Below, piece by piece: positions 1,031 through 54,225 of a stretch of DNA of 64,000 nt (position 1 is its first letter; each line of letters begins with the position of its first letter). The position numbers and the translations under genes are program-made. Location of the stretch: contig JACKCO010000004.1 in assembly GCA_020633995.1 (NCBI GenBank), forward strand, positions 310,243-374,242. Direction: 5' to 3'. The notes beneath the pieces were generated by a model. The model did no database searches. It was not told the origin of the DNA and saw only the letters and a list, made by a program, of their open reading frames with translations. Source of the DNA: Campylobacterota bacterium. GTDB taxonomy: Bacteria > Babelota > Babeliae > Babelales > RVW-14.

Positions 1031-2764
1031 TCAGATCTCACTAGCTAGTGTTTGCATAAGTCGCAGCATTTTGAGTTTGAGCAGCTGCAACATGTTAGTT
1101 AGTTGATTTATGGCTTGAGTTGCAAAATCTGCTGGAATTTCAAAATCAGGCAAGATTTTACTAAAGTCGTCGTAAAGTTCTTGAGTTGGATAAAAAGAGC
1201 CTTGCGAGTAATGAATTTTTTGGTTATTTGACTCAAAGACGATTGCGTTGTTTGATATTTTATTCTGCTCAACCAAGTACGAATATTCTCCATAAATAGA
1301 GCGATGTAATTGAACAGAGAGCGTGGATTGTGGTTCATGTTTTTGTATAAATTTTTCAAATGTTTCTATAACAGATTGAGTCACCTGAGTTTGTGACTTG
1401 CTTTTATTGTTTATGAATGCTGTGCGTGTTAGTTTTTTTAGTTCTTCAAGTTGTGCTGCAGAAAGAAGAGTTGGTTCTGGTTCTTCTTCATCTTCTTCAG
1501 AAGGAATTTCAAAGAATAGGTCTTTGCCTGATAAGGTATTGTTGATTCTAGCATGTATCAAATCATACCCATTTTGTTCATTAATAAGTGTAACGCAACA
1601 AAAAAGGTCATAAAGGGCACTAACTGTATCGCTTTTCGTATTCTCTTGATGTATTTGAAGAGTAGTTATGGTATCAAAAATGCGAGCAAAGCTTATTTTT
1701 TCATATTCACTTGTAAACAGTTTATTAAAATTTTCTTCGGTTAGATTTTTTAAGGTCTCATTGAATTTGTTATTTTTAGAAAGGCTTGATAGTGCATTAA
1801 GCACACGAGCCCTACTTGCAATCGCGTCTGCACTAGCGTCTTCGTCTGTAAGATTGTATTCTGCTACGAGATAATTTTGGTTGGTACCATCACCTTCGAG
1901 TAGCTTGTAAATGTCTGCAGACTCTTCGTCATTAAGCTGTATATTTTCTGCTAGCTGTTGAATTGTTACGAGTTGTGACGGTGTATAGTTTTGCTCTATA
2001 GAACTTTCATAGTCTGTTGGGAGATCAATGATGTCAAAACTATGACTTTTTTTGGTGGTATCTTCAGCCTTAAGGCTGTAAACATCTGGGAAATGTATGA
2101 GCGTAACCTTCTTGTTTTCATCTGCTGAGAGTAGCGCTTGTATCTTGTCAGTGGGCGGTTGTGCGGGTTCAATCATCTGAATGGTAATGTTTTGGTAACC
2201 AAGTATTAACATACCCTTAATCAAAAGGTACAGTTGCGCGCCTTGCCCCGGCCCAAAGGTAGTATGGACAATAGCAGGTGTTGAGTCGGGTGGGAATGTT
2301 GTGTTGAGTGCGTTAAGTTGTTTGAGCGTTGTTTCAACGCGCATAACGTTTGAAAGACTAGGGCAACTGCACCAAGCTATCCCGTTATTTGCCGGTTCGT
2401 TCGGAAGCTGGATGTTAATACGCGTTAGGTATCTGTTAGGATTATTATAGTCAAAGTGTTCATCTGTATCAGTAAAGTCGTCATGTGTGGGAATAAAGGT
2501 ATAGGGTTGCTTAAAAATTTCTTTTAAAAATGTCCAAAATTTTTGTTGTCGATCTTGACTAAGCGATGTGTTGCTGATTATTTTAGCGATTTGAGTAAGT
2601 TCGTATGCGCGTGCCGTATAGTTTGCTTCATAGGTAAAGGATTTCTTATCCAAGTCAATTGCTGGATCAAAGGTTATGGTGCAAAGCAAGCTTTGTCCCA
2701 GTCCAATCAAGACGAGAGCTAATAATGTGTAGCGAGATAGTGAGTGTCCCCTAGTATTTTTCAT
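1031..2764 (-). CDS. Secreted hypothetical protein (577 aa) with a possible Rossmann/methyltransferase-like core and a C-terminal LKLKM helix
   Basis: Long ORF with N-terminal signal peptide MKNTRGHSLSRYTLLALVLIGLG. Paralogous to 1..1029. C-terminus is NMLQLLKLKMLRLMQTLASEI. Confidence 0.6.
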   Translation of the reverse strand: MKNTRGHSLSRYTLLALVLIGLGQSLLCTITFDPAIDLDKKSFTYEANYTARAYELTQIAKIISNTSLSQDRQQKFWTFLKEIFKQPYTFIPTHDDFTDTDEHFDYNNPNRYLTRINIQLPNEPANNGIAWCSCPSLSNVMRVETTLKQLNALNTTFPPDSTPAIVHTTFGPGQGAQLYLLIKGMLILGYQNITIQMIEPAQPPTDKIQALLSADENKKVTLIHFPDVYSLKAEDTTKKSHSFDIIDLPTDYESSIEQNYTPSQLVTIQQLAENIQLNDEESADIYKLLEGDGTNQNYLVAEYNLTDEDASADAIASRARVLNALSSLSKNNKFNETLKNLTEENFNKLFTSEYEKISFARIFDTITTLQIHQENTKSDTVSALYDLFCCVTLINEQNGYDLIHARINNTLSGKDLFFEIPSEEDEEEPEPTLLSAAQLEELKKLTRTAFINNKSKSQTQVTQSVIETFEKFIQKHEPQSTLSVQLHRSIYGEYSYLVEQNKISNNAIVFESNNQKIHYSQGSFYPTQELYDDFSKILPDFEIPADFATQAINQLTNMLQLLKLKMLRLMQTLASEI

Positions 2765-2854
2765 GCCCCGTACCCTGAATAATATTTTTCCAAATATAAA
2801 TATGTTGCATAGTATTATTGTATACCAGGTAGCTTTTGCATTGCAATAGTATTT

Positions 2855-2879
2855 ACAACTGGCCTATTGGGCCAGTTGT
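2855..2879. promoter_or_regulatory. Perfect 10-bp inverted repeat in a divergent intergenic region (candidate operator or 5' structure)
   Basis: acaactggcc-tattg-ggccagttgt, between divergent genes 2764(-) and 3094(+). No flanking T-run, so it is not a terminator. Confidence 0.25.
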
Positions 2880-3093
2880 GGGTAGTGCATGAAAAAAGCC
2901 TAAGTTACGCAAGGAAACGTTGATTTGGGCGCAGGATAGCAGCTTTATACACTTTTTAGCTTGTCTATTTACTTCTCCTGACCGAGTGGGTATAACAGGT
3001 GTAGGCTATGGTAATAAAATCCCCAATTTGGGGATTATTTTTATAGTGCTTGAATGCCCAAAAAGGGCTTACATAGGGAGAAAGGAAGCGGTT

Positions 3094-3654
3094 ATGAGTA
3101 GTAATGCCAAGCAGGGGGGCGAAAGGACCAGCGTCGCCTGGTTTGCGTTGTCAAATTTGATAGCACGTAAGGAGAAGGAAAAGGCGCTCAACGTCTTTCG
3201 GTTGCTGGCACATTCTTTTGATGATCGTGCTTATACGCTGCAGATAGAAGGTGATATCTTGTGGCATCTTGATGACTATGACCAGTCGATTGAACGGTAC
3301 AAAAAAGCTGCATTTTTGTACCAAAAGGAAAAACGCTTGATCAACGCGATTGCAATCTACGAACATATGCTCAGTATGAATGAACATAACGACGAAATTC
3401 TGGCTCAATTGATTTATTTTTACCTACTTGCTGATTTGCAGGATAAGTTTGAACAACGTTTTGAGCTGCTAGCCCAGCGCCAGAGTAAGCATCAGTTTGA
3501 TGAACAAGTGTTGCTAAAGTTTGCAAAGCTAATAGCCGAAACGCTCAACACCCCAGAGCGGGAGCAAACGCGTGCTTGGGCAATACAAACGATGAAAAAA
3601 GTGTGTCAACACCATGCACCCGATTTGATGCAACATTTTTTACAAAATCATTGA
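3094..3654 (+). CDS. TPR-like helical repeat protein
   Basis: ATG at 3094 preceded by gggagaaaggaag. The track ORF starts at an upstream TTG (2920). Repeated A/Y/L helical pattern (YKKAAFLYQKEKRLINAIAIYEHML). Confidence 0.45.
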   Translation: MSSNAKQGGERTSVAWFALSNLIARKEKEKALNVFRLLAHSFDDRAYTLQIEGDILWHLDDYDQSIERYKKAAFLYQKEKRLINAIAIYEHMLSMNEHNDEILAQLIYFYLLADLQDKFEQRFELLAQRQSKHQFDEQVLLKFAKLIAETLNTPEREQTRAWAIQTMKKVCQHHAPDLMQHFLQNH

Positions 3655-20699: not shown

Positions 20700-21235
20700 T
20701 GGTGGGAGCGCTAGGTTTGCATGGATCCCGGCTCGTATCCCCTTGTCAAGCACGAGGACAGGCTTGGGATGACGACAAGGGGTTGTAATGCTGTACAACA
20801 AACGGTGTCTTCCTGCACCATGTGCTCTGCTGACGTCATCCTGAATTTATTTCATTGTTAACTCAAATCCAACAAAAAAGGTGTCATCCTCGAGTCCCAT
20901 CGAGGATCTCGTTTAAAGTGCTTTTTATTGATCAGTAGCAACGATTAGTAATGAAAATAAGATTCCCGATCGGTGTCGGGAATGACGCCTATTCAATCGC
21001 ATATGATTTGACAAGTAGCACCTTGATCAGAGTATCGTTTCAGCATCTAGCTAAGTAAGAGAGAAAAGATCCTGAAATAAATTCAGGATGACGTGAGGTA
21101 TAGCCCATGCCAACACTCCCCCTTGTCCGATACCGATCAGGGCATCCTGAACTTATTTTCCTCCTAACTAAATTTCTTAATATACGATTTTTTCCTACAA
21201 AGCCTGCAATAACTGTAGCCTTGTACATGCTGTTA
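20700..21235. repeat. Intergenic cluster of hairpin repeat modules
   Basis: Examples: 20723-20776 (nested), 20883-20908 gtcatcctcgagtcccatcgaggatc, 20961-20988 gattcccgatcggtgtcgggaatgac, 21069-21092 gatcctgaaataaattcaggatgacg. Confidence 0.85.
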
Positions 21236-21601: not shown

Positions 21602-22873
21602 ATGACCAAGCAGCATGAGGTTGTTGTAACAGGCATTGGGTTAGTAACCCCGCTGGGCAATGACACACAAACAACGTGGCGCAATGCCATTGCTGGCAAA
21701 TCCGGCATTGTTGCGCTTCAGTCAGACGAATATGCTCAGCAACCACATGCAATGGCAGGGTTGGTGCGTGGTGAGCAAGAAGCGCTTGATCATCTTGTTA
21801 ATGCAAAAGATCAAGCACGCAGTCATCGATTTATGCATCTTGGGTTGCTTGCGGCCCATCAAGCACTTACTGATGCCGCACTGTTGGATGCAGACCAAGC
21901 AGTACGTGACCACATTGGTGTGTACATGGGCGTCAGCGTTGGTGCGCTTGACGTCATTTGCCAGTCGGCACTACAGGCAGACAAAGACGGTCACCACCGC
22001 CGCGTTTCGCCCTTTGCGCTGCCCAAAGCAATTACCAACATGGCACCAGCCTGGGTGAGTATGCAATGGGGTTTGAAGGGGCCGGTGCTTGCGTTTGCAA
22101 ATGCCTGTAGCTCAAGTTCAGATGCACTCGGTTTTGCATTTCGCGCTGTGCGTGACGGATACGCTCCCTACATGCTTGCTGGTGGCAGTGAGAGTTGCAT
22201 TACACCGCTTACGCTTGCAGGGTTTTACAACATGCGTGCGCTTTCTCGTTGGCCGGGCGCTCCTGAGCAGGCCAGTCGTCCGTTTGATCAAAAACGTTGT
22301 GGATTTGTTATTGCAGAAGGTGCTGCTATGCTTATGCTTGAGCGTGCAGAGTCTGCCTATGCACGCGGTGCAACTATTTACGGTACTATCAAAGGGTATG
22401 GTGCAACCAGTGATGCATTTCACATGACGGCAATGCAGCCAGATGGGCTTGGTGCGCAACGCGCCGTTTTGCAGGCGCTTGATCAAGCTGGACTGCAACC
22501 AACAGACATTGGTTATGTCAATGCGCACGGCACCTCAACGCCGATGAATGATGCAACTGAGTCAAAAATGTTTAAACGGGTGTTTGGCACTTATGCTGAC
22601 CCTGAGCAGAAAAATCACGTTCGTGTAAGTAGTACAAAATCAATGACCGGGCATATGCTTGGTGCAGCTGGTGCTGCTGAGGCTGCATTTTGTTTGCTTG
22701 CACTTCATAATGGCGTATTGCCGCCGACTATTAATTTAGACACGCCTGATTCGGCTTGCGAGCTGGACTATATTGCAAATGCTGCCTGCACGCTTTCTGT
22801 TGAACATGCGCTTTCTACCTCCTTTGGTTTTGGTGGTGGTAATGCTGCGCTTGTGTTTGGTAGGGGCAACTAA
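21602..22873 (+). CDS. fabF: 3-oxoacyl-ACP synthase II
   Basis: 423 aa. Active-site ACSSS, HGTSTP and GHMLGAAG motifs. Confidence 0.92.
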   Translation: MTKQHEVVVTGIGLVTPLGNDTQTTWRNAIAGKSGIVALQSDEYAQQPHAMAGLVRGEQEALDHLVNAKDQARSHRFMHLGLLAAHQALTDAALLDADQAVRDHIGVYMGVSVGALDVICQSALQADKDGHHRRVSPFALPKAITNMAPAWVSMQWGLKGPVLAFANACSSSSDALGFAFRAVRDGYAPYMLAGGSESCITPLTLAGFYNMRALSRWPGAPEQASRPFDQKRCGFVIAEGAAMLMLERAESAYARGATIYGTIKGYGATSDAFHMTAMQPDGLGAQRAVLQALDQAGLQPTDIGYVNAHGTSTPMNDATESKMFKRVFGTYADPEQKNHVRVSSTKSMTGHMLGAAGAAEAAFCLLALHNGVLPPTINLDTPDSACELDYIANAACTLSVEHALSTSFGFGGGNAALVFGRGN

Positions 22874-22948
22874 ATTATAACGGAGATTCTGAAGCGATAT
22901 TTTGATTGCGTTAGAGAGATCCTGAAACGATACTCTGATCAAGTCAGA

Positions 22949-23314
22949 GCACATGGTTCAGCATGGCGTCGAGAAGAGTGCGTGATTCAGGATGACGTCG
23001 GTCGGGGAGTGTGTAGTTAAGGATGACGTCAGGAGTGCAACTTTTCCGTCGGGAACGACAAATTTTTTGTATGCCAATTCTCCAAGCAAGGTGTTCTTAA
23101 AAAAAGAAATGTTACTCTGAAATAGAGAGACGTTGCCTTAAACTCGGTAGAAGCATTCTGCATTTGGTAGATGCACCCTGAGTCGAGAAGACGTCACCCT
23201 GGGGGTGAGAGGTGTCACTCTCAGTTGAGGGGGGCATTCTGAGTCGAGAGAACAACGTACCTTGAACTCGGTAGACGTCACCCTGAATTTATTTCAGGGT
23301 CTTCTTGATAAAGA
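22949..23314 (+). repeat. Long direct repeat R1 flanking the GIY-YIG pair (31-nt tandem units plus a ~20-nt degenerate array plus a hairpin)
   Basis: Near-identical to 24335..24712. It ends in gtcaccctgaatttatttcagggtc (23277-23301). Confidence 0.85.
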
Positions 23315-23338
23315 TTGTTAGTCGAGGATCATCTGACT

Positions 23339-23623
23339 ATGGCTTTTTATGTTTATATTATGGCAAACAAACCACGTGGGACTTTGTACATAGGAGTTAC
23401 CAATAATTTATCACGTAGAGTTTGGCAGCATAAGCAAAAGACCCTAGATGGTTTTTCAAAGAAATATAATCTGACACGTCTTGTCTGGGCTGAAAAAATT
23501 GAATATGGCCAGCAGGCTATCGCTCGTGAAAAGCAATTAAAACGTTGGCATCGTGAGTGGAAAGTTAATTTGATTGAGTCTTTAAACCCAGAGTGGGATG
23601 ATTTGTACTCCACGTTAGTGTAG
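23339..23623 (+). CDS. GIY-YIG (URI-domain, COG2827-type) nuclease, copy 1
   Basis: MAFYVYIMANKPRGTLYIGVTNNLSRRVWQHKQ..REKQLKRWHREWKVNLIE shows the GIY-YIG core with conserved R and E. ATG at 23339, gagga 10 nt upstream. Confidence 0.85.
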   Translation: MAFYVYIMANKPRGTLYIGVTNNLSRRVWQHKQKTLDGFSKKYNLTRLVWAEKIEYGQQAIAREKQLKRWHREWKVNLIESLNPEWDDLYSTLV

Positions 23624-23747
23624 ATCCTGAAACGATACTCTGATGAAAATAGAGATCCTGAAACGAGTTCAGGATGACGTCTTTTCGTTCAGGATGACGT
23701 CATGTAAGGATAGGTGAATGTTGCGTTCTTCTGTGTGGAGGAGATTT

Positions 23748-23912
23748 TTACTCTGAATCTGGTGGTAGATGCACCCTGAGTCGAGAAGACGTCACCCTGG
23801 GGTGAGAAGGTGTCACTCTCAGTTGAGGGGGGCGCTCTGAGTCGAGAGAACAACGTACCTTGAACTCGGTAGACGTCACCCTGAACTTGTTTCAGGGTCT
23901 TCTTGATAAAGA
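23748..23912 (+). repeat. Middle copy (R2) of the ~20-nt degenerate repeat array plus hairpin
   Basis: Same unit series as 23140-23314. It ends in gtcaccctgaacttgtttcagggtc and the shared leader sequence. Confidence 0.8.
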
Positions 23913-23936
23913 TTGTTGGTCGAGGATCATCTGACT

Positions 23937-24230
23937 ATGGCTTTTTATGTTTATATTATGGCAAACAAACCACGTGGGACTTTGTATATTGGTGTTACAA
24001 GTAACCTTGCTCAAAGAGTTTTGCAGCACAAACAAAAAAAGGTGTCTGGCTTTACGCAAAAATATAATCTTTCTCAGCTTGTGTGGGTGAAAGTTAGTCT
24101 TTCTATGCAAGAGGCAATTACGCTTGAGAAACGCTTGAAGAAGTGGAACCGAAGCTGGAAAATGGAGCTCGTAGAATCAACGAATCCCAACTGGCAAGAT
24201 CTATCTCATGTGTTATTTAACATTGATTAA
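23937..24230 (+). CDS. GIY-YIG (URI-domain) nuclease, copy 2
   Basis: MAFYVYIMANKPRGTLYIGVTSNLAQRVLQHKQ..LEKRLKKWNRSWKMELVE. The first 50 nt are identical to copy 1, then it diverges. Confidence 0.85.
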   Translation: MAFYVYIMANKPRGTLYIGVTSNLAQRVLQHKQKKVSGFTQKYNLSQLVWVKVSLSMQEAITLEKRLKKWNRSWKMELVESTNPNWQDLSHVLFNID

Positions 24231-24236
24231 AATCTA

Positions 24237-24271
24237 GATCCCCGATGGGACTCGGGGATGACCCCTTTTTT
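24237..24271 (+). terminator. Hairpin module acting as a likely terminator of GIY-YIG copy 2
   Basis: gatccccga-tgggac-tcggggat, then gacccc plus T6 (24266-24271), 7 nt after the stop. Confidence 0.5.
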
Positions 24272-24334
24272 ATTGGATTTAACTTTACAGCAACACTCTG
24301 GACAGTTGTAAAACAAGTTCAGGATGACGTCAGG

Positions 24335-24712
24335 GCACATGGTTCAGCATGGCGTCGAGAAGAGTGCGTGATTCAGGATGACGTCGGTCGGGGAGTGTGT
24401 GGTTCAGGATGACGTCGGTCGGGGAGTGTGTGGTTCAGGATGACGTCGAGGGGCGCAACTTTTCCGTCGGGAACGACAAATTTTTTGTATGCCAATTCTC
24501 CAAGCAAGGTTGTTCTTAAAAAAAGAAATGTTACTTTGAAATAGAGAGACGTTGCCTTAAACTCGGTAGAAGCATTCTGCATTTGGTAGATGTACCCTGA
24601 GTCGAGAAGACGTCACCCTGGGGGTGAGAAGGTGTCACTCTCAGTTGAGGGGGGCATTCTGAGTCGAGAGAACGTACTCTGAACGAAAAGACGTCACCCT
24701 GAATTTATTTCA
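24335..24712 (+). repeat. Long direct repeat R3 (gene-less copy of R1)
   Basis: Collinear with 22949..23314 apart from one extra 31-nt unit. It ends in gtcaccctgaatttatttca. Confidence 0.85.
24372..24456 (+). repeat. 31-nt tandem repeat, about 2.7 units
   Basis: ttcaggatgacgtcggtcggggagtgtgtgg starts at 24372, 24403 and 24434 (partial). The R1 equivalent at 22986-23038 has one unit fewer. Confidence 0.85.
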
Positions 24713-24774: not shown

Positions 24775-24960
24775 GGGGGGTCATCCCCGAGGCCCATCGG
24801 GGATCTCGCTTGAAACACTTTTTATTGATCAGGCCAACGATTAGTAATGAAAACAAGATTCCCGATCAGCTCCCGTGTCAAGCACGAGCACATGGTTCAG
24901 GATGACGACACGCAAGTGCATGATCCCCAAAAAAAATCCCCACAAACAATTTAAGCCTCC
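24775..24960. repeat. Hairpin repeat cluster (composite ~110-bp unit also present at 20883-20990)
   Basis: gtcatccccgaggcccatcggggatctcgcttgaaacactttttattgatcag..cgattagtaatgaaaacaagattcccgatc parallels 20883-20975. Confidence 0.8.
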
Positions 24961-25018: not shown

Positions 25019-26329
25019 TTATTTTGTTAATGCAGCTCTGACAGCATTAACAACACTTGAAGCATTGTTTGTTACTGTAGGAACGATGTTCTTAACAGCT
25101 TCGAGTGCAGCACCACTGCGAGCAGCAGCTTGAGCGGTAAGGTTGCTCATAGCAACAGGAGCAGCGGCACGTGCAGCAGCAAGAGCAGCTATAACACCTG
25201 CAGTTGTTGGCATGCTAACGGTACCAAGTGCAACTGCGGTTGCAGCAGCTTCTGTTGCAAAACCTAGAGCACCAATACCAGTCAACGTACCAGCAAGCTT
25301 AGCAGCTTTAGTAGCGTTTTCTTGAAACTTTTCAAGCATTGTTGGTTCTACTACTGGAGCAATTGGAGCTTTAACAACAAGACCTTTAACAGCTTGTGCA
25401 AAGCCTTTAATGCTATCAAGGTTTGCGTAACCAAGACCAGCAGCAGCTATAACAGCAGCAGCAATTGCTTTTTTCTTGTGAGTTTTAACTTTGTTAGCTG
25501 TCCAGTTATAACCAGCTTTAACTTTACCAGTTGTCCATTGACCAGCTTGAGCAAGTTTGTCTTTTTTCCAGTAACCAAGACCAGCAGCCACAAGAGCAGC
25601 TGAAGCGATACCAGCATTTTTAGCTGTTACATATTCAAGACCAGCTTTACCAAAGTCAACACATGCTTGCTTGCTTGGCACAAAACCAGCAACTTTGCCC
25701 AGAGCGTTGGTAGCATTTTCTTTAGTTGCAACAGCCCTGATAGCATCAAGATTTGTGTAACCAAGGTAGCCAAGACCAGCAAGACCAGTAGCCAATGCTG
25801 TGTTTCTTACAACGTGGCTGTTGTTTTCAAGAGCAGCAATAAGAGCATCCGTGATGTGTTGCTTTTCGTTAGCTGCATTTTTTGAGTAAGCCTGTGTGAT
25901 GTTGTCAATGTAGCCAGCTTTAATTTTGTTCACAACAGTAGTGGTGAGTGCATCAACGTTGTCGAGTTTTGCAGTTTTACATTTGTTTTGAAAACCCTTA
26001 ATAACTGACGCCATACGTGGAACAAAACTACCTGACTTTGAAACATAACCAACTTTACCGGTCATTAAGCTTTTAAAGTTGTCAAGTCTTGTTGGATTCG
26101 TTTCCTTGTTGGTAAAGGTAACTTGAAGACCATCTGCTAATTCTTGTAAGAACTCGCCATCTTGCTTGTTTTCTGGTTTTTGTTGAGCAAAGTGTTCTGC
26201 AACGCTTGCAACAACTGTGTTGTTACTTGTGCAAATGTCTTGTCTGCTTTGTGTAACAGTAGCACTAACGTTTGCAAACAAACCAACTGCAATAACAGCA
26301 GCCATGATTTTTTTGTTAGGTGTAACCAT
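25019..26329 (-). CDS. Ala-rich secreted or membrane-associated protein with AGLGY repeats
   Basis: 436 aa. GGAGG Shine-Dalgarno. Signal peptide MVTPNKKIMAAVIAVGLFANVSA. Three (L/A)AGLGY(x)NLD/KKD repeats. Confidence 0.7.
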   Translation of the reverse strand: MVTPNKKIMAAVIAVGLFANVSATVTQSRQDICTSNNTVVASVAEHFAQQKPENKQDGEFLQELADGLQVTFTNKETNPTRLDNFKSLMTGKVGYVSKSGSFVPRMASVIKGFQNKCKTAKLDNVDALTTTVVNKIKAGYIDNITQAYSKNAANEKQHITDALIAALENNSHVVRNTALATGLAGLGYLGYTNLDAIRAVATKENATNALGKVAGFVPSKQACVDFGKAGLEYVTAKNAGIASAALVAAGLGYWKKDKLAQAGQWTTGKVKAGYNWTANKVKTHKKKAIAAAVIAAAGLGYANLDSIKGFAQAVKGLVVKAPIAPVVEPTMLEKFQENATKAAKLAGTLTGIGALGFATEAAATAVALGTVSMPTTAGVIAALAAARAAAPVAMSNLTAQAAARSGAALEAVKNIVPTVTNNASSVVNAVRAALTK

Positions 26330-26670
26330 AATAATAATCCTCCATAATGAAGATAAACCTACATTTACGTTTGCGCATGATCACATTAACTAACGCAGTT
26401 AAGGTGCAAGGTGAGGCTAGATAGTTTATAAAATACTACGCTTGATTACCGAGCTCCTGTAACAGCGACGTATTTTGCACCTCTAGACTGAGACCTCTCA
26501 TGTGCTATTTGCAATAGTAAATCAATAAAAAAATAGAGTCAAACGCACTTAGTAATTTTTTATTGATATTGCGCAATTTTTTTAAGAGATTTGCCAAACA
26601 AAAAAAAGTATATATACTCAATCGCACCATTGGTTCGATGTTTTATCGTTTTGCATGCAAAGGACGGGCT

Positions 26671-27570
26671 ATGCAAAAAAAATATGATCACCATCGTACA
26701 TCTCAAATTCAAACTGTAATTACATTTCTAATCGTAATTAATTCTCTGTGTTATACCAGTTTTATTATGAGTCAGGTGCAAGCTGGCCACGCGGAGTACG
26801 TGTGTCAAAAGTGTGGGTTTCAACAAAAAAAAGAGCTTGATAGTAGAGCGGCTCATACAGAGCACGTTGCGCAGCATCGTGCAGAGCAACAAAAAACAGA
26901 AAGCCCCAAGCAGCATTATGCCTATTTTCAGTCATTGCTGAGCCCTCGAGTGTGTAAAAAGTATGATCCACTGCACCCATTGGTCAGGCAGGTGCTTAAC
27001 CTGAGTTGTGCTGGCAGTGTGGCCGGGGGGCTGAGTTATGGTAGCTGTATGCTGCTTCGCGTTGCGGCCCGTTACTACTTGGATCAGCCTACAGGAAGCG
27101 TTAATCGCGATGCTGGCTTGCGCCAAGAGTTGGGCGACGAGCTTGCCCGCTGTCTTGACCAATGGGATGGTACGTCTGGCAGCGATACACCACGAACTCG
27201 ATCTGGTAGCAGGCCGGAGCGTGCAAAGCGGCAAGCACAGCTGCGCATGAAAAAAATGAACGATTTAATCGCCCTTGCAGGCGTACTGGTGTGGGTGGCT
27301 GGCACCGTGGGGATTATGTTTTGGCTCAATCGCAAAGGTGAGCCGCAACGGGAGAGCGCTGTGCAGGTGCTTGAGCGGCTTATGGACCAGTGGCTGCTGC
27401 ATCGCCCCTTTGTGCCCGAGCAGTTTGTGCAGCGATGTGACCAGCTGCATACAGCCTACCAGACGGGCAATGGGTGTTTGCAGCTGAGTGAAGATGAGGC
27501 TGAGGCGTTGGTTAAACAGATGGTGATGGTGTGTTTGGAGGCAGAGGCCGATTTTGCTACTAAATGCTAA
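26671..27570 (+). CDS. Hypothetical membrane protein (GC-richer than its surroundings)
   Basis: Start chosen at MQKKYDHH (26671). It has hydrophobic segments (TVITFLIVINSLCYTSFI and LIALAGVLVWVAGTVGIMFWL). Its 3' part is duplicated at 30179..30430. Confidence 0.55.
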   Translation: MQKKYDHHRTSQIQTVITFLIVINSLCYTSFIMSQVQAGHAEYVCQKCGFQQKKELDSRAAHTEHVAQHRAEQQKTESPKQHYAYFQSLLSPRVCKKYDPLHPLVRQVLNLSCAGSVAGGLSYGSCMLLRVAARYYLDQPTGSVNRDAGLRQELGDELARCLDQWDGTSGSDTPRTRSGSRPERAKRQAQLRMKKMNDLIALAGVLVWVAGTVGIMFWLNRKGEPQRESAVQVLERLMDQWLLHRPFVPEQFVQRCDQLHTAYQTGNGCLQLSEDEAEALVKQMVMVCLEAEADFATKC

Positions 27571-27653
27571 GTTAACTTTACATATAGTTCTGCTAGAAGC
27601 AAAATGTGCGCAATGCACGGATGAAAAATGCTTACTGATCGGCAAAAATACTG

Positions 27654-27700
27654 CATCCTTGTAAATTGGAATTAGGCTTTTCAATTTACAAGGATGTTTT
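27654..27700. terminator. Bidirectional intrinsic terminator between convergent genes
   Basis: Perfect 15-bp stem catccttgtaaattg/caatttacaaggatg with a 13-nt loop. tttt follows on the plus strand and tattttt on the minus strand. Confidence 0.6.
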
Positions 27701-29469: not shown

Positions 29470-30178
29470 TGCCGTTATCTGTACCCACATTAGTATTACC
29501 ATGGATACCGGCTCGTGGGCCGGTATGACGAGTTGGTAGGGCCAGCATGACAAGTACTTGGAGATGATTTCCCTTAATGAAAATAAGATTACCGATCGAA
29601 GTATTGTACGTCGATACAAAGGACTATGCAATATAATCAGATCCTGAAACAAATTCAGGATGACGTCATGAGTATAAAATAACGTCATCCTGAACCATGT
29701 GCTCTGACTTGATCAGAGTATTGTTTCAGGATCCATAACTAGTCATTCCACCCCAAGGGGAAAACAATGGACCCTGGATCGGAGTCACTACTGTCCAAAG
29801 TGTTTTGAAATAATCTTTTTTGAAGGTGCATGCTATTACCCCTTAGGTCGCCCCCGGCTTGGTCGGGGGTCCAGATAATGGTTAATCAAGTTCTGGATTC
29901 CCGCCGAGCCTGCCCTCTGACTTGATCAGGGGGTCACTGCAACCCACGAGCCATTACTGTGCGTGATTTTCATATAAATTGTAGCACTACTACTTGTGGG
30001 TCAAGTTTGCGATACCTCAACTCGTCGCTCCGGGCTTGATCCGGAGTCCATAGGTCAAATCTACGCTTTACTTCCGTGCTCGTGTGGATACCGGCTCGTG
30101 GGCCGGTATGACGAAGTGCGGTATATATTTATTGATCTTGGCCCCGAAGCCTGGAGGGAGTCATCCCCGACTTCGATA
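29470..30178. repeat. Dense hairpin repeat cluster including a truncated MITE-like copy
   Basis: 29503-29532 ggataccggctcgtgggccggtatgacgag. 29640-29667 and 29682-29733 are inverted tgaa-type modules, the second one nested. 29790-29915 is homologous to 60366-60485. Confidence 0.85.
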
Positions 30179-30430
30179 GCTTGCCCGCAGTCTTGGCCAA
30201 TGGGATGGTACGTCTGGCAGCGATACACCACGAACTCGATCTGGTAGCATGCCGGAGCGTGCAAAGCGGCAAGCACAGCTGCATACAGCCTACCAGACGG
30301 GCAATGGGTGTTTGCAGCTGAGTGAAGATGAGGCTGAGGCGTTGGTTAAACAGATGGTGATGGTGTGTTTGGAGGCAGAGGCCGATTTTACTACTAAATG
30401 CTAAGTTGACTTTACATATAGTTCTACTAT
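30179..30430 (+). pseudogene. Duplicated, internally deleted 3' fragment of gene 26671..27570
   Basis: Matches 27141-27244 joined directly to 27449-27596. The 204-nt in-frame deletion is bounded by cagctgc microhomology. An in-frame TAG lies just upstream, and the only ATG in frame is at 30250. Confidence 0.8.
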
Positions 30431-31639: not shown

Positions 31640-31960
31640 ATTATTACTGAGCATATTTATTGATCTTGGCCCCGAAGCCTGGAGGGAGTCATCCCCGAGC
31701 CTGCTCTCTTGCCTGCCTTGGGGGCATCCCCGACTTCGAGCCTGCCTTCTTGCTTGACAAGAGGGTCATCCCCAATTCCACACGCTTGTCATCCTCGGAC
31801 TTGATCTACACGCTCGTCACCCTGGACTCCGATCCAGGGTCCATTTTTGAAGATCACATCTAAAACCTAGGTGAGCATTCTCATGGATACCGGCTCGTGG
31901 GCCGGTATGACGAAGTGCGGTGTATATTCATGGATGCCGGGTCCTCCCCCCCCGACAGGC
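31640..31960. repeat. Hairpin repeat cluster
   Basis: 31650-31700 is homologous to 30128-30175. 31812-31845 gtcaccctggactccgatccagggtcc. 31885-31915 ggataccggctcgtgggccggtatgacgaag. Confidence 0.85.
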
Positions 31961-38329: not shown

Positions 38330-39008
38330 GATTTTCGACCCCCACTTTCGTGAGGGCTGTCGGGGATGATCCCCTGATCAAGTCAGAGGATATGCAAATC
38401 TACCTCGTCACCCTGGACTCCGATCCAGGGTCCATTTCTAAAGAATAAACGCATCGTACATAACATATGAGTGTCACAATGGATACCGGCTCGTATCCCC
38501 TTGTCAAGCAAGAGGACAGGGCCCGGTATGACGAGTGCGAGAGGCTATAATTTTTTTGAGTCATCTCGGCCTTGTTGTTAACTCAAGAAACAACAAAAAA
38601 GGAGTCATCCCCGAGTCCCATCGGGGATCTAGATTTTAATCAATGTTAAATAACACATGAGATAGATCTTGCCAGTTGGGATTCGTTGATTCTATGAGCT
38701 CCATTTTCCAGCTTCGGTTCCACTTCTTCAAGCGTTTCTCAGATACTGATAGTGTAACAAAAAATAATGGTGTAACAATTAAACAAGATCCCCGATGGGA
38801 CTCGGGGATGACCCCTTTTTTATTGGATTTAACTTTACAACAATACTTTAATTAGGGTGACGACATCTTGAATCAGGGTGATGACATCTGTTATTGCTGC
38901 GTGGCGAAAATATCTCTCGGAGAATTAAAGAATTGCAACCGACAAGATTGCACACAATAAAAAAGTTGTCATTCCCGACAGCCCTCACGAAAGTGGGGGT
39001 CGAAAATC
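38330..39008. mobile_element. ~680-bp segment bounded by 40-bp inverted repeats, containing a GIY-YIG gene remnant and hairpin modules
   Basis: 38330-38369 is the reverse complement of 38969-39008 with 1 mismatch in 40 (hand-checked). Confidence 0.45.
38603..38741 (-). pseudogene. Remnant of a GIY-YIG nuclease gene (3' ~105 nt) with its downstream hairpin
   Basis: Reverse complement of 24125-24262 (tgagaaacgcttgaagaagtggaaccgaagctggaaaatggagctc..cattgattaaaatctagatccccgatgggactcggggatgac) with few changes. Confidence 0.8.
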
Positions 39009-40214: not shown

Positions 40215-40640
40215 GGACCTAATCCTGCTTAGCATACCATGCGCATGAGGCGAATCTGAAGAGTTTGATAAAAAAGGCAGGTTCTGGATCCCGCCTATGC
40301 GGGAACGGTTCCCTGGGCAAGCCAGAGGACAGGCTTGGTGATGAGCCACTACTGTACAAAGCGCTGTTTGTAAAATCATATGCAATTGAGTAGGAGTCAT
40401 TCCCGACGCCGATCGGGAATCTGGGTAAAAGAGAGCTACTGGTTTGTAGCATGTTTGTGTTTGTAAAATTTTATATGAAGGGCAGGTTCTGGATTCCCGC
40501 CTACGCGGGAACGACGAGTGTTGGGTTGTTAGGCAGATACAAGATCAAGATGGCTGCTCTTGGAAAGTTAGGCTACAAAAAACTACGTCTTCCCCGACTT
40601 GATCGGGGATCCAGAACTTGAAGTATTCCTTTCAAGAAAA
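40215..40640. repeat. Hairpin repeat cluster
   Basis: 40281-40310 and 40487-40518 gttctggattcccgcctacgcgggaacgac. 40396-40421 gtcattcccgacgccgatcgggaatc. 40587-40612 cgtcttccccgacttgatcggggatcc. Confidence 0.85.
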
Positions 40641-50759: not shown

Positions 50760-50905
50760 CCAGGTCTGTTTTCTGGCTTTGGCTAGGCCAGATCCCGATC
50801 CAAGGCTCGTCACTCCGGGCTTGATCCGGAGTCCATTTCTAAAGATAGAACCTACTATTTTATCTGGGAAAGACGTGGCTTCCGGTTCGTAGGCAGGATG
50901 ACGAG
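50760..50905. repeat. Hairpin repeat cluster
   Basis: ccagatcccgatccaaggctcgtcactccgggcttgatccggagtccatttctaaag parallels 30024-30052 and 38407-38445. Confidence 0.75.
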
Positions 50906-53624: not shown

Positions 53625-54225
53625 GCGAGCCTACCCTCTTGCTTGCTCAGGGGGCATCCGGGTTTCTTCTCGTCATCCTCTGGCTTGACCAGGGGGATAA
53701 CGATTCATGAGCAGCGTCTACAACTGTCCAAAGTGTTGAGAAAGCCTGCTGAGAAGATAGGTGGCTACGACTGACAAGTTTGCTTGCGAAAAAAAAATCG
53801 TCGTCCCCGGCTTGGTCGGGGATCTAAAAAATTAAAAGTGAAATAAATGATGTAAGGGTTGTATGATTCTTACAAAGGAGATCCCCGATCGGCGTCGGGG
53901 ATGACCCCCAGAAAAAAACGTCTATAAAAAAATATCGCATTCAAACGTAAAGTAACACTTTGGACAGTAATGGATCGGAGTCCAGGGTGACGAGATTGAA
54001 TGCTATGTTATAAGTACAAGTTGCTGCATGACGTTTCAAAGTTATGGGGAGCGTATAGCTCCCCCTCTGTTTTTTAGTGCCATGCAATGTAATACTCGTC
54101 ATCATCAAGTCCGGAGCCACGAGCCTGCCCTCTTGCGTGATCAGGGGAGTCACCCGGACCGAACACGCGTCATCAAGCTTGTCCTCTGGCTTGACCAGGG
54201 GAGCCCACGAGCCGTGATCCATTCT
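53625..54225. repeat. Hairpin repeat cluster containing a MITE-like unit (53723..53968)
   Basis: actgtccaaagtgtt (53723-53737) and its inverse aacactttggacagt (53954-53968) flank gtcgtccccggcttggtcggggatc. Also 53672-53698 and 54131-54215 cctctggcttgaccagggg-type modules. Confidence 0.8.
54046..54075 (+). terminator. Orphan intrinsic-terminator-like hairpin
   Basis: ggggagc-gtata-gctcccc followed by ctctgtttttt. It is about 440 nt from the trpS stop, so the transcript it would end is unknown. Confidence 0.35.

What the first reader, a model, noticed from the sequence alone, without database searches (positions are those of the whole stretch)
22949..24712. Tandem GIY-YIG nuclease genes, each fronted by an iteron-like ~20-nt repeat array and bracketed by ~360-bp direct repeats
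Two small URI-type GIY-YIG ORFs (23339..23623 and 23937..24230) lie between fabF and a surface-protein gene. Each is preceded by the same ~170-bp module. That module is made of 7-8 head-to-tail degenerate ~20-21-nt units (gtcaccctgagtcgagaagac / gtcaccctgggggtgagaggt / gtcactctcagttgagggggg / cattctgagtcgagagaacaac / gtaccttgaactcggtagac). It ends in the hairpin gtcaccctgaaNttNtttcagggtc and an identical leader, ttcttgataaagattgttRgtcgaggatcatctgactATG. A third, gene-less copy of the module closes the locus. As a result the gene pair is bracketed by long direct repeats (22949..23314 versus 24335..24712). Copy 2 is followed by a hairpin/terminator module (24237..24271). A decayed copy of the gene's 3' end plus that hairpin exists 14 kb away (38603..38741). 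The hairpin modules belong to the same families that fill 13 intergenic clusters in this window. Taken together this looks like a self-propagating nuclease-plus-repeat unit rather than a housekeeping gene. I do not know of a described bacterial element with this architecture. The closest analogy is RAYT/REP, but with a different enzyme class.
Basis: partly seen in the sequence, partly recalled or inferred. Interest (0 to 1): 0.85.

Follow-up and report, generated by a model that had tools for sequence, protein, structure and literature searches.

The report
Tandem Ssn nuclease genes with hairpin repeats
The locus holds two adjacent genes for small single-strand-DNA-cutting nucleases of the Ssn family, each flanked by the hairpin repeats such enzymes recognise; this nuclease-plus-repeat system was described in 2025, so it is a new example of a known kind.

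Summary
Two 94/97-aa single-domain GIY-YIG genes sit between fabF and an Ala-rich ORF. A ~175-bp upstream module occurs three times, ~360-bp direct repeats bracket the pair, and a 3' gene remnant lies 14 kb away. Ssn proteins are ~94-aa GIY-YIG enzymes that bind a directional hairpin repeat as ssDNA and cut just upstream. Their genes typically sit as hairpin-gene-inverted hairpin, with many gene-less hairpins elsewhere. Both window genes have that layout. Twenty hairpins with the frame GTC-palindrome-C lie in eight intergenic regions (chance about 0.1). In 129 homologue loci from many phyla the same frame clusters next to the gene in the same orientation. Local extras: the two paralogues carry different hairpin classes; a 224-bp tract around the 5' hairpin is 97-100% identical between them while the rest of the genes is 57%; the remnant is an internally deleted unit that keeps both hairpins. 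Self-propagation stays unproven. The MAG's four paralogues are divergent, although 25-39-bp target-duplication-like repeats flank units in six other genomes. Verdict: new member of a known kind, modest interest.

The parts
22917..22969 (-). Degenerate long-loop SRM-type element at the left edge of the locus
   Evidence: 94% identical to 29682-29733, a GTCATCCTGAAC...TTTCAGGATC hairpin with a 24-nt loop
22937..23164 (+). Segment A, copy 1, of the long direct repeat. It carries right-half SRM fragments (TTCAGGATGACGTC at 22986-22999 and 23017-23030).
   Evidence: (families D2, D3, D7)
23165..23276 (+). Segment B, copy 1: a weakly 21-nt-periodic run of degenerate SRM left-half units (GTCACCCTGAG..., GTCACCCTGGGGGTGA..., GTCACTCTCAG...)
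   Evidence: Found only in this locus.
23277..23301 (+). 5' SRM hairpin of ssn-1, CTGAA class (GTC ACCCTGAA tttat TTCAGGGT C)
   Evidence: The same class lies 11-60 nt upstream of Ssn genes in L053, L079, L102 and others.
23302..23338 (+). Leader with a GAGGA ribosome-binding site, shared by both genes
   Evidence: A weak promoter-like TTGATA-16-GATCAT match is also present.
23339..23623 (+). ssn-1: 94-aa single-domain GIY-YIG protein (GenBank MCB9493515.1)
   Evidence: Pfam PF01541, E 4e-15. Y6, Y17, R27, H31, E64 and N83 are conserved. Accession.
23654..23678 (-). 3' SRM hairpin of ssn-1, CTGAA class, inverted relative to the 5' one
23763..23986 (+). Homogenised tract: B copy 2, the 5' SRM (23875-23899), the leader and the first 50 nt of ssn-2. 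It is 97-100% identical to 23165-23388.
   Evidence: Orthologues of ssn-2 (P0002, P0003) start MSY(C/S)TYIMTNKPRGVLY, whereas ssn-2 starts MAFYVYIMANKPRGTLY like ssn-1.
23937..24230 (+). ssn-2: 97-aa single-domain GIY-YIG protein (GenBank MCB9493516.1). It is chimeric, with a 5' end of ssn-1 type.
   Evidence: Pfam PF01541, E 2e-16..
24237..24262 (-). 3' SRM hairpin of ssn-2, CCCCGA class (GTC ATCCCCGA gtccca TCGGGGAT C on the minus strand), followed by a T run
   Evidence: The orthologous unit L051 has this class on both sides.
24323..24583 (+). Segment A, copy 2, with one extra 31-nt unit (tandem array 24340-24448)
24584..24712 (+). Segment B, copy 3 (gene-less). It ends in a half SRM (GTCACCCTGAATTTATTTCA with no right arm).
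24780..24805 (+). Solo SRM, CCCCGA class, inverted partner of 24237-24262
   Evidence: (pair I1)
38595..38825 (-). Internally deleted ssn-2-type unit. It has a 5' SRM (38787-38812), about 45 nt of the ancestral leader, codons 64-97 plus the stop (38639-38740), and a 3' SRM (38604-38629).
   Evidence: The 3' part is 98% identical to 24125-24275. The 5' SRM plus leader aligns with the L051 unit. Also.
20883..21092 (.). Cluster of three solo SRMs: 20883-20908 (+), 20961-20986 (-), 21068-21092 (-)
29504..30112 (.). Solo SRMs at 29504-29529 (-), 29640-29664 (-) and 30087-30112 (-), plus a long-loop SRM at 29684-29736 (+)
31816..31911 (.). Solo SRMs at 31816-31841 (+) and 31886-31911 (-)
38407..38432 (+). 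Solo SRM (ACCCTGGA stem)
40396..40614 (+). Solo SRMs at 40396-40421 and 40586-40614. The second is the only site in the window that matches the published SRM search pattern.
50809..50833 (+). Solo SRM (ACTCCGG stem)
53880..53905 (-). Solo SRM, CCCCGA class

Best explanation
The locus is a tandem pair of ssn genes. Ssn is a family of site-specific single-strand DNA endonucleases, single-domain GIY-YIG proteins of CDD family cd10448.

Each gene sits in the family's canonical arrangement: SRM hairpin (+), about 35 nt, gene, SRM hairpin (-). The pair is embedded in a cluster of whole and partial SRM repeats.

By homology with the characterised enzymes, each protein binds its hairpin repeat only when the DNA is single-stranded. 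It reads the palindrome plus the conserved GTC on the 5' side and the C on the 3' side, and cuts a few nucleotides 5' of the repeat. The roughly 20 gene-less hairpins in the window's intergenic regions are its genomic sites.

The unusual local layout is module-gene-module-gene-module inside ~360-bp direct repeats. I infer that it is secondary. It would come from tandem duplication and gene conversion between SRM-bearing repeats. The freshest event copied a 224-bp tract centred on the 5' hairpin, replacing the 5' hairpin, leader and first 17 codons of ssn-2 with those of ssn-1.

Shown here: family-level homology, catalytic residues, hairpin frame, architecture, cross-phylum association and mosaic structure. 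Taken from the literature: ssDNA-specific binding and cleavage, and a role in limiting recombination of repeat-bearing ssDNA. Inferred: that these two proteins act on the CTGAA and CCCCGA hairpin classes respectively, and that cleavage at the hairpin promoted the conversion.
For: Protein:
- Pfam GIY-YIG only, 94 and 97 aa.
- Y6, Y17 and E64, the residues whose mutation abolishes N. meningitidis SsnA cleavage, are invariant at the same numbering.
- 51-71% identity to proteins flanked by exact matches to the published NTS consensus (L003, L015).

Hairpins:
- 19 perfect hairpins of the form GTC + 7-8-bp stem (8 bp in 18 of them) + 5-7-nt loop + stem + C, against 0.12 in shuffles.
- GTC and the 3' C are the positions the paper found critical for cutting and binding.
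- Of 20 hairpins (these 19 plus the one site matching the published SRM pattern), 19 lie outside ORFs of 120 aa or more, although such ORFs cover 79% of the window.

Architecture:
- ssn-1 has a (+) hairpin at 23277 and a (-) hairpin at 23654. ssn-2 has a (+) hairpin at 23875 and a (-) hairpin at 24237.
- In 49 genome loci, 36 of 53 frame hairpins lie within 200 bp of the gene; 14 of 17 upstream are (+) and 15 of 19 downstream are (-).
- In 80 independent metagenome loci, 66 have a hairpin within 200 bp and 41 have one on both sides; 53 of 62 upstream are (+) and 56 of 71 downstream are (-).
- No conserved neighbouring gene was found.

Literature: PMC11893778.

Mosaic structure: 97-100% identity over 23165-23388 against 57% for the rest of the CDS. 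The ancestral 5' end of ssn-2 is preserved in the remnant and in L051.
Against: - The published degenerate SRM search pattern matches only one site in the window (40586-40614) and none of the hairpins flanking the two genes. Their assignment as SRMs rests on the conserved frame and on context.
- I could not compare directly with N. meningitidis SsnA or with CDD cd10448, because neither is available in the tools.
- There is no biochemical evidence for these two proteins.
- The paper reports that changing the stem while keeping the hairpin abolishes N. meningitidis SsnA activity. The window has at least six stem classes and the MAG only four known paralogues, so some classes may have no active partner.
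Confidence: 0.85

Rival explanations
1. Active selfish element. The hairpin-gene-hairpin unit is an autonomous mobile element of about 0.4 kb. Its nuclease drives copying of both itself and the gene-less hairpins, like RAYT/REP or an IS with MITE derivatives. This is compatible with Ssn family membership; it concerns what the system does.
For: - The architecture is IS-like, as the Ssn authors also noted.
- The gene sits in a different context in nearly every genome, and orthologues of ssn-2 have different neighbours in L050, L051 and the window.
- Direct repeats of 20 nt or more bracket the gene in 36 of 104 loci, against 0 of 339 control positions. Six of them are 25-39 bp of unique host sequence just outside the two hairpins (L012, L035, L038, L056, L070, L114).
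- The window holds an internally deleted unit that keeps both hairpins, as a MITE precursor would.
- The conversion tract is centred on the 5' hairpin.
Against: - GIY-YIG nucleases are hydrolytic and make no covalent intermediate, so any spread needs host repair or replication. This rests on established knowledge of the superfamily.
- The four paralogues in this MAG are only about 54-78% identical, so no recent transposition burst of the gene has occurred.
- Three Henriciella species keep the gene at one syntenic site.
- No empty-site allele was found.
- The one demonstrated function is restriction of transforming ssDNA.
Confidence: 0.3
2. Incidental arrangement. An ordinary small gene was tandemly duplicated in a spacer that happens to be full of generic REP-like repeats mobilised by some other enzyme. 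The nuclease and the hairpins are unrelated.
For: - This genome's intergenic regions are rich in many kinds of repeats.
- Some hairpin stem classes have no cognate gene in the window.
Against: - The same hairpin frame sits next to homologues in many phyla with a fixed orientation and spacing, and is often the only such hairpin in a 4-6-kb locus.
- Direct binding and cleavage were shown for four homologues.
- No Y1/RAYT-type gene or other recurrent neighbour was found in 49 loci.
Confidence: 0.03
3. The ~175-bp module is a cis-regulatory RNA leader, or an iteron-type protein-binding array (a replication or partition site), that controls the nuclease genes.
For: - The module lies directly 5' of both genes and includes the ribosome-binding site.
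- There is a weak 21-nt periodicity.
- Folding is modestly better than shuffles, z about -2.
Against: - There is no Rfam match at gathering or at E<=1.
- The module is absent upstream of the orthologues L050 and L051 and occurs nowhere else in the window.
- Its near-identity continues 50 nt into the CDS, which indicates recent copying and not conservation.
- No replication or partition genes lie nearby.
Confidence: 0.04

Closest known systems
Ssn nucleases with NTS/SRM hairpin repeats (SsnA of Neisseria meningitidis, NMV_0044/NMB0047; Chenal et al. 2025, PMC11893778)
   Same: - A single-domain GIY-YIG protein of 94 aa with Y6, Y17 and E64.
- The gene is flanked 5' and 3' by inverted copies of a directional hairpin with GTC before and C after the palindrome.
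- Many gene-less copies are confined to intergenic DNA, clustered next to a probable surface-protein gene.
   Different: - The hairpins have AT-richer stems (CCTGAA, CCCCGA) that the published SRM search pattern misses.
- Two divergent paralogues lie in tandem, each with its own hairpin class. The paper does not discuss paralogues.
- There is a chimeric 5' end and a local array of half-sites.
- The host is an uncultured small-genome MAG whose competence for transformation is unknown.
RAYT/REP (REPtrons; IS200/IS605-like Y1 HUH transposases with REP/BIME repeats)
   Same: - A single gene is flanked by inverted hairpin repeats.
- A conserved short motif lies 5' of a variable, compensated stem.
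- Recognition is on ssDNA.
- Many gene-less copies lie in intergenic regions.
   Different: - The enzyme class differs: a hydrolytic GIY-YIG fold instead of HUH Y1, so there is no covalent 5'-phosphotyrosine intermediate.
- The motif is GTC, not GTAG.
- The gene is about 285 bp, against roughly 450 bp or more.
Free-standing and intron-encoded GIY-YIG homing endonucleases (I-TevI, Seg proteins)
   Same: - The catalytic domain is GIY-YIG.
- The genes are small and solitary, in variable contexts.
- There are gene-conversion-like tracts next to a putative cleavage site.
   Different: - There is no DNA-binding domain or linker.
- The characterised Ssn relatives cut ssDNA at a hairpin, not a long asymmetric dsDNA site.
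- The target is a multi-copy repeat and not a single allele.
UPF0213/YhbQ-Slx1-like bacterial GIY-YIG proteins (e.g. BH0048, PDB 1ZG2)
   Same: A small GIY-YIG domain protein; this is the only PDB sequence match.
   Different: The similarity is very weak (E 0.002). It is a different CDD family, and I know of no hairpin-repeat association for it.

Membership tests
Ssn nuclease family (cd10448) | Single-domain GIY-YIG protein of about 94 aa with no extra domain | tested here: met
   94 and 97 aa. PF01541 covers residues 3-77, and only a weak overlapping T5orf172 match accompanies it.
Ssn nuclease family (cd10448) | Catalytic residues whose mutation abolishes SsnA cleavage (Y6, Y17, E64) | tested here: met
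   Y6, Y17 and E64 are invariant in the alignment of 13 family members, along with R27, H31 and N83. The mutants are described in the paper.
Ssn nuclease family (cd10448) | Homology to N. meningitidis SsnA (E<1e-10) and placement in the cd10448 clade | not testable with these tools
   Neither the SsnA sequence nor CDD is available here. Indirect support: 51-71% identity to proteins flanked by exact matches to the published NTS consensus (L003, L015).
Ssn nuclease family (cd10448) | Gene flanked 5' and 3' by SRM hairpins (NTS-ssnA-NTS) | tested here: met
   Hairpins at 23277(+)/23654(-) flank ssn-1, and at 23875(+)/24237(-) flank ssn-2. The orientation rule matches that seen in 129 homologue loci.
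Ssn-related motif (SRM) | Match to the published search pattern HGTCWYN(0-2)YYVSBRHN(0-5)WNVSBRGN(0-2)RNCYNB | tested here: not met
   Only 40586-40614 matches, and none of the gene-flanking hairpins do. The pattern requires G+C-rich stems. It also misses the CTGAA class that flanks 14 other Ssn loci.
Ssn-related motif (SRM) | Directional hairpin with conserved GTC 5' of the palindrome (needed for cutting) and C 3' of it (needed for binding) | tested here: met
   All 19 perfect hairpins have GTC + A...T stem + C, with at least six compensated stem classes. The functional positions are reported in the paper.
Ssn-related motif (SRM) | Many copies per genome, almost all intergenic | tested here: met
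   20 hairpins in 64 kb against about 0.1 expected. 19 of the 20 lie outside ORFs of 120 aa or more. The whole genome could not be examined.
Ssn nuclease family (cd10448) | Site-specific cleavage of ssDNA only, not dsDNA or RNA | not testable with these tools
   This is a biochemical property, shown for four homologues in PMC11893778.
RAYT/REP | HUH Y1 transposase (Y1_Tnp, PF01797) as the associated protein | tested here: not met
   The proteins are GIY-YIG. No recurrent second gene was found in 49 loci.
GIY-YIG homing endonuclease | Catalytic domain joined to a separate DNA-binding domain | tested here: not met
   The proteins end about 15 residues after the catalytic domain. The TIGR01453 match is far below its cutoff (22 bits against 56).

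The most novel reading that the evidence does not exclude
Ssn-SRM units are, or recently were, autonomous mobile elements of about 0.4 kb, which would be smaller than any known insertion sequence. They would insert with unusually long (25-39 bp) target duplications. Cleavage at the hairpin would drive local gene conversion and generate internally deleted, MITE-like derivatives and solo hairpins. On this reading the window shows three stages side by side: a fresh 224-bp conversion tract centred on a hairpin, a chimeric gene, and a deleted unit that keeps both ends.
Probability: 0.3. Interest if true: 0.7.

Novelty: new member of a known kind. Interest (0 to 1): 0.3.

Why it matters
For this genome, the result explains most of the intergenic hairpin repeats in the window. 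It also gives a specific annotation, Ssn ssDNA endonuclease, to two genes labelled only 'GIY-YIG nuclease family protein'.

For the Ssn field, the locus offers three things:
- A natural pair of divergent paralogues side by side, each with its own hairpin class. This is a ready-made test of protein-hairpin specificity.
- Evidence that the published SRM search pattern misses a widespread CTGAA hairpin class.
- Sequence-level hints about the question the 2025 paper left open, namely how the repeats and the gene spread. The hints are a conversion tract centred on a hairpin, a deleted derivative that keeps both ends, and target-duplication-like repeats in six other genomes.

Tried and rejected
- Structured RNA or riboswitch: no Rfam match in the window at gathering threshold, none at E<=1 in the locus, and none in 20 homologue loci apart from an unrelated cobalamin riboswitch. 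Folding of the module gave only z about -2 as RNA or DNA.
- Promoter and terminator scans gave weak consensus matches only.
- Exact look-ups of the two proteins found no contig. The fabF product occurs only on two short Logan contigs that break at the repeats, so the fabF-downstream site could not be compared between strains.
- The source genome is not in the genome collection, so no whole-genome census was possible.
- Literature searches pairing GIY-YIG with REP, YhbQ, COG2827, RAYT or MITE found nothing relevant. The query GIY-YIG + hairpin + repeats + transposase found the Ssn paper.
- The paper's supplementary files are not held, so the SsnA sequence could not be retrieved.
- The PDB sequence search gave only the distant UPF0213 protein BH0048.
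- I looked for a conserved partner gene, such as a transposase, near the homologues. None was found.
- I considered an iteron or replication-origin reading and a homing-endonuclease reading. Both were rejected on the grounds given under the rival explanations and the membership tests.
Full report
**1. What is in the sequence**

Between fabF (21602-22873; ketoacyl-synthase domains) and a 436-aa Ala-rich ORF with no family match (25019-26329, minus strand) lie two small ORFs. They are 23339-23623 (94 aa) and 23937-24230 (97 aa). Both match Pfam GIY-YIG (E 4e-15 and 2e-16) and no other domain of substance. The two proteins are 63% identical.

- A module upstream of gene 1 (23165-23338) recurs upstream of gene 2 (23763-23936).
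- It recurs again, truncated and gene-less, at 24584-24712.
- Copies 1 and 3 extend leftwards, so that 22937-23296 and 24323-24712 form 87%-identical direct repeats around the pair. Copy 3 has one extra 31-nt unit.
- A fragment 98% identical to the last 34 codons of gene 2 plus its downstream hairpin lies at 38591-38741 on the minus strand.

The '20-nt array' is the weakest part of the observation. TRF sees only 2.7 copies of a 21-nt period. Lag 20-21 is the best autocorrelation lag in each copy but only just exceeds shuffles. The array is found nowhere else in the window.

**2. The hairpins share one frame**

All the hairpin families of the window reduce to GTC, then a 7-8-bp stem (8 bp in 18 of 19) that begins with A, a 5-7-nt loop, the complementary stem ending in T, then C. 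There are 19 perfect instances against 0.12 in dinucleotide shuffles.

At least six stem classes keep their pairing through changes on both sides: ATCCTGAA/ACCCTGAA, ATCCCCGA, ATTCCCGA, ATACCGGC, ACCCTGGA and ACTCCGG.

Of 20 hairpins (these 19 plus the one site that matches the published SRM pattern), nineteen lie outside any ORF of 120 aa or more, although such ORFs cover 79% of the window. They fall in eight intergenic regions.

Gene 1 has a (+) hairpin 37 nt before its ATG (23277-23301) and an inverted one 30 nt after its stop (23654-23678), both of the CTGAA class. Gene 2 has a CTGAA-class (+) hairpin in front (23875-23899) and a CCCCGA-class inverted hairpin behind (24237-24262).

The units of the upstream array (GTCACCCTGAG..., GTCACCCTGGGGGTGA..., GTCACTCTCAG...) read as degenerate left halves of the same frame. 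The TTCAGGATGACGTC motif (19 copies against 0.25 expected) is its right half on the other strand.

**3. The same unit occurs across bacteria**

A scan of species-representative genomes returned 47 loci with homologues of 42-71% identity, from Proteobacteria, Bacteroidota, Chloroflexota, Cyanobacteria, Patescibacteria, Dependentiae-like bacteria and others. The source genome itself is not in that collection.

- In these loci plus two further distinct contigs encoding close homologues of gene 2 (L050, L051) — 49 loci in all — 36 of 53 frame hairpins lie within 200 bp of the gene, which is about 7% of the sequence. Fourteen of 17 upstream are (+) and 15 of 19 downstream are (-). Often they are the only such hairpins in the 6-kb locus.
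- An independent set of 80 metagenome loci gave the same result. Sixty-six have a hairpin within 200 bp and 41 have one on both sides. Fifty-three of 62 upstream are (+) and 56 of 71 downstream are (-).
- No other gene recurs next to the homologues. Only three Henriciella species share synteny.

**4. This is a published system**

A full-text search found Chenal et al., Nat Commun 2025 (PMC11893778). The paper reports the following.
- SsnA of Neisseria meningitidis is a 94-aa single-domain GIY-YIG protein of CDD family cd10448. It binds the repeat NTS (CGTCATTCCCGCGMAVGCGGGAATCYRG, an oriented extension of dRS3) only as ssDNA and cuts a few nucleotides upstream. It does not act on dsDNA, RNA or the complementary strand.
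- The three nucleotides before the palindrome govern cutting. The C after it is the most important base for binding.
- The mutations Y6A, Y17A and E64A abolish cleavage.
- 71% of homologues have at least one 'Ssn-related motif' (SRM) nearby, and 42% have one on both sides.
- 81% of genomes with more than 200 SRMs encode a homologue.
- Three further homologues cut their own repeats.
- In Neisseria the enzyme lowers transformation by NTS-bearing DNA.
- The authors point out that NTS-ssnA-NTS looks like an insertion sequence. They compare it with RAYT/REP/BIME and suggest domestication.

The window genes fit this description.
- The size and domain content match.
- Y6, Y17 and E64 are invariant at the same numbering.
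- The GTC...C frame and the layout match.
- Close relatives are flanked by exact matches to the NTS consensus (L003 at 71% identity to gene 2, and L015).

Two caveats apply.
- I could not compare directly with SsnA or cd10448. The supplements are not held and PDB has only a distant UPF0213 protein.
- The published degenerate SRM pattern matches just one site in the window (40586-40614) and none of the gene-flanking hairpins. The pattern demands G+C-rich stems.

The CTGAA class that flanks gene 1 also flanks 14 other Ssn loci, eight of them on both sides. The published pattern requires G+C-rich stem positions that a CTGAA stem lacks, as the window's own CTGAA copies show. I therefore treat the window hairpins as SRM variants, not as something else.

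**5. How the local architecture arose (inference)**

The identity between the two gene copies is very uneven.
- It is 100% over 23165-23200.
- It is 96% over 23214-23338.
- It is 100% over the first 50 nt of the CDS.
- It is 57% over the remaining 232 nt.

Orthologues of gene 2 from other contigs (P0002 at 85%, P0003 at 78%) begin MSY(C/S)TYIMTNKPRGVLY. Gene 2 begins MAFYVYIMANKPRGTLY, exactly like gene 1. In L051 the orthologous unit has CCCCGA-class hairpins on both sides and a different leader.

The remnant at 38595-38825 (minus strand) keeps that ancestral 5' hairpin and about 45 nt of that leader. It then jumps to codon 64 and ends with the 3' hairpin.

From this I conclude two things.
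- A 224-bp tract was recently copied from the gene-1 unit onto gene 2, making gene 2 chimeric. The tract extends 112 nt left and 87 nt right of the 5' hairpin.
- The remnant is an internally deleted unit of the gene-2 type with both ends intact.

The long A+B direct repeats and the gene-less third module fit tandem duplication and unequal exchange among SRM-bearing segments. Whether nuclease cuts at the hairpin promoted these events cannot be decided from sequence alone.

**6. Is it self-propagating?**

Points in favour:
- The architecture is IS-like and the genomic context varies.
- The deleted derivative keeps both hairpin ends.
- Direct repeats of 20 nt or more bracket the gene in 36 of 104 loci, against none of 339 control positions in the same loci. 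The paper does not mention this.
- Most of these repeats contain SRMs. Six, however, are 25-39 bp of unique host sequence just outside the two hairpins: L012, L114, L035 (the 3' end of the upstream CDS), L038 and L056 (the upstream terminator), and L070. These look like target duplications.

Points against:
- GIY-YIG enzymes are hydrolytic and cannot carry out strand transfer on their own. This is established knowledge of the superfamily.
- The four paralogues that, by their accession numbers, belong to the same MAG are only about 54-78% identical. They are MCB9493006, MCB9493515, MCB9493516 and MCB9493715, on contigs of 728, 542 and 112 kb.
- The Henriciella loci are syntenic.
- No empty site was found.

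I put active or recent mobility at about 0.3.

**7. Verdict**

The claim of novelty does not hold, because this is the Ssn/SRM system.

What is specific to this locus:
- two divergent paralogues in tandem (also seen in L104 and L109);
- hairpin classes outside the published search pattern;
- the chimeric 5' end of gene 2;
- the deleted derivative at 38.6 kb.

It is a new member of a known kind, of modest interest, with a useful side lead on how Ssn units move.

Noticed in passing
L012, L035, L038, L056, L070, L114 (gene at about 2000-3300 in each locus): Direct repeats of 25-39 bp of unique host sequence lie just outside the hairpin-gene-hairpin unit. They include the 3' end of an upstream CDS and upstream terminators. 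Overall, repeats of 20 nt or more bracket the gene in 36 of 104 loci against 0 of 339 control positions. This looks like target-site duplication and is not mentioned in the Ssn paper.
   Followed up: partly
window 23277-23301, 23654-23678, 23875-23899, 21068-21092, 29640-29664; loci L017, L053, L056, L079, L102 and others: A hairpin class GTCAYNCTGAA-N4-6-TTCAGNRTC flanks 14 of 129 Ssn loci, eight of them on both sides. The published SRM search pattern requires G+C-rich stems and does not match the window's copies of this class, so SRM counts based on that pattern are underestimates.
   Followed up: partly
GenBank proteins MCB9493006.1, MCB9493515.1, MCB9493516.1, MCB9493715.1: The two window proteins and two further paralogues have closely spaced accession numbers on contigs of 728, 542 and 112 kb. 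They probably belong to one small-genome MAG, labelled 'Epsilonproteobacteria/Campylobacterota bacterium'. I did not verify that label. Many window ORFs have no family match.
   Followed up: partly
L104 (360-641 and 2001-2282); L109 (1153-1422 and 1876-2145): Two ssn homologues lie close together on the same strand in two metagenome contigs, so tandem or near-tandem pairs are not unique to this window.
   Followed up: no
window 30150-30400 versus 27140-27244 and 27442-27696: An intergenic stretch repeats two pieces of the 3' part of ORF 26563-27570 (335 aa, no family match). It looks like a partial, rearranged gene copy sitting among SRM hairpins.
   Followed up: no
window 29684-29736 and 22917-22969: These are composite hairpins with the SRM frame but a 24-nt loop that itself contains a small palindrome (CTCTGA-cttga-TCAGAG). 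They are a longer variant of the repeat.
   Followed up: no
L041 3292-3318; also L049, L004, L006: The 3' hairpin overlaps the end of the ssn coding sequence, so the last residues of the protein (for example ...ILRCAQDDK) are encoded by the repeat itself.
   Followed up: no
L017 786-858 (minus strand): An AdoCbl-II cobalamin riboswitch (54 bits) lies about 360 nt upstream of the ssn homologue, on the opposite strand, in a Patescibacteria contig. It is probably unrelated to the ssn gene.
   Followed up: no
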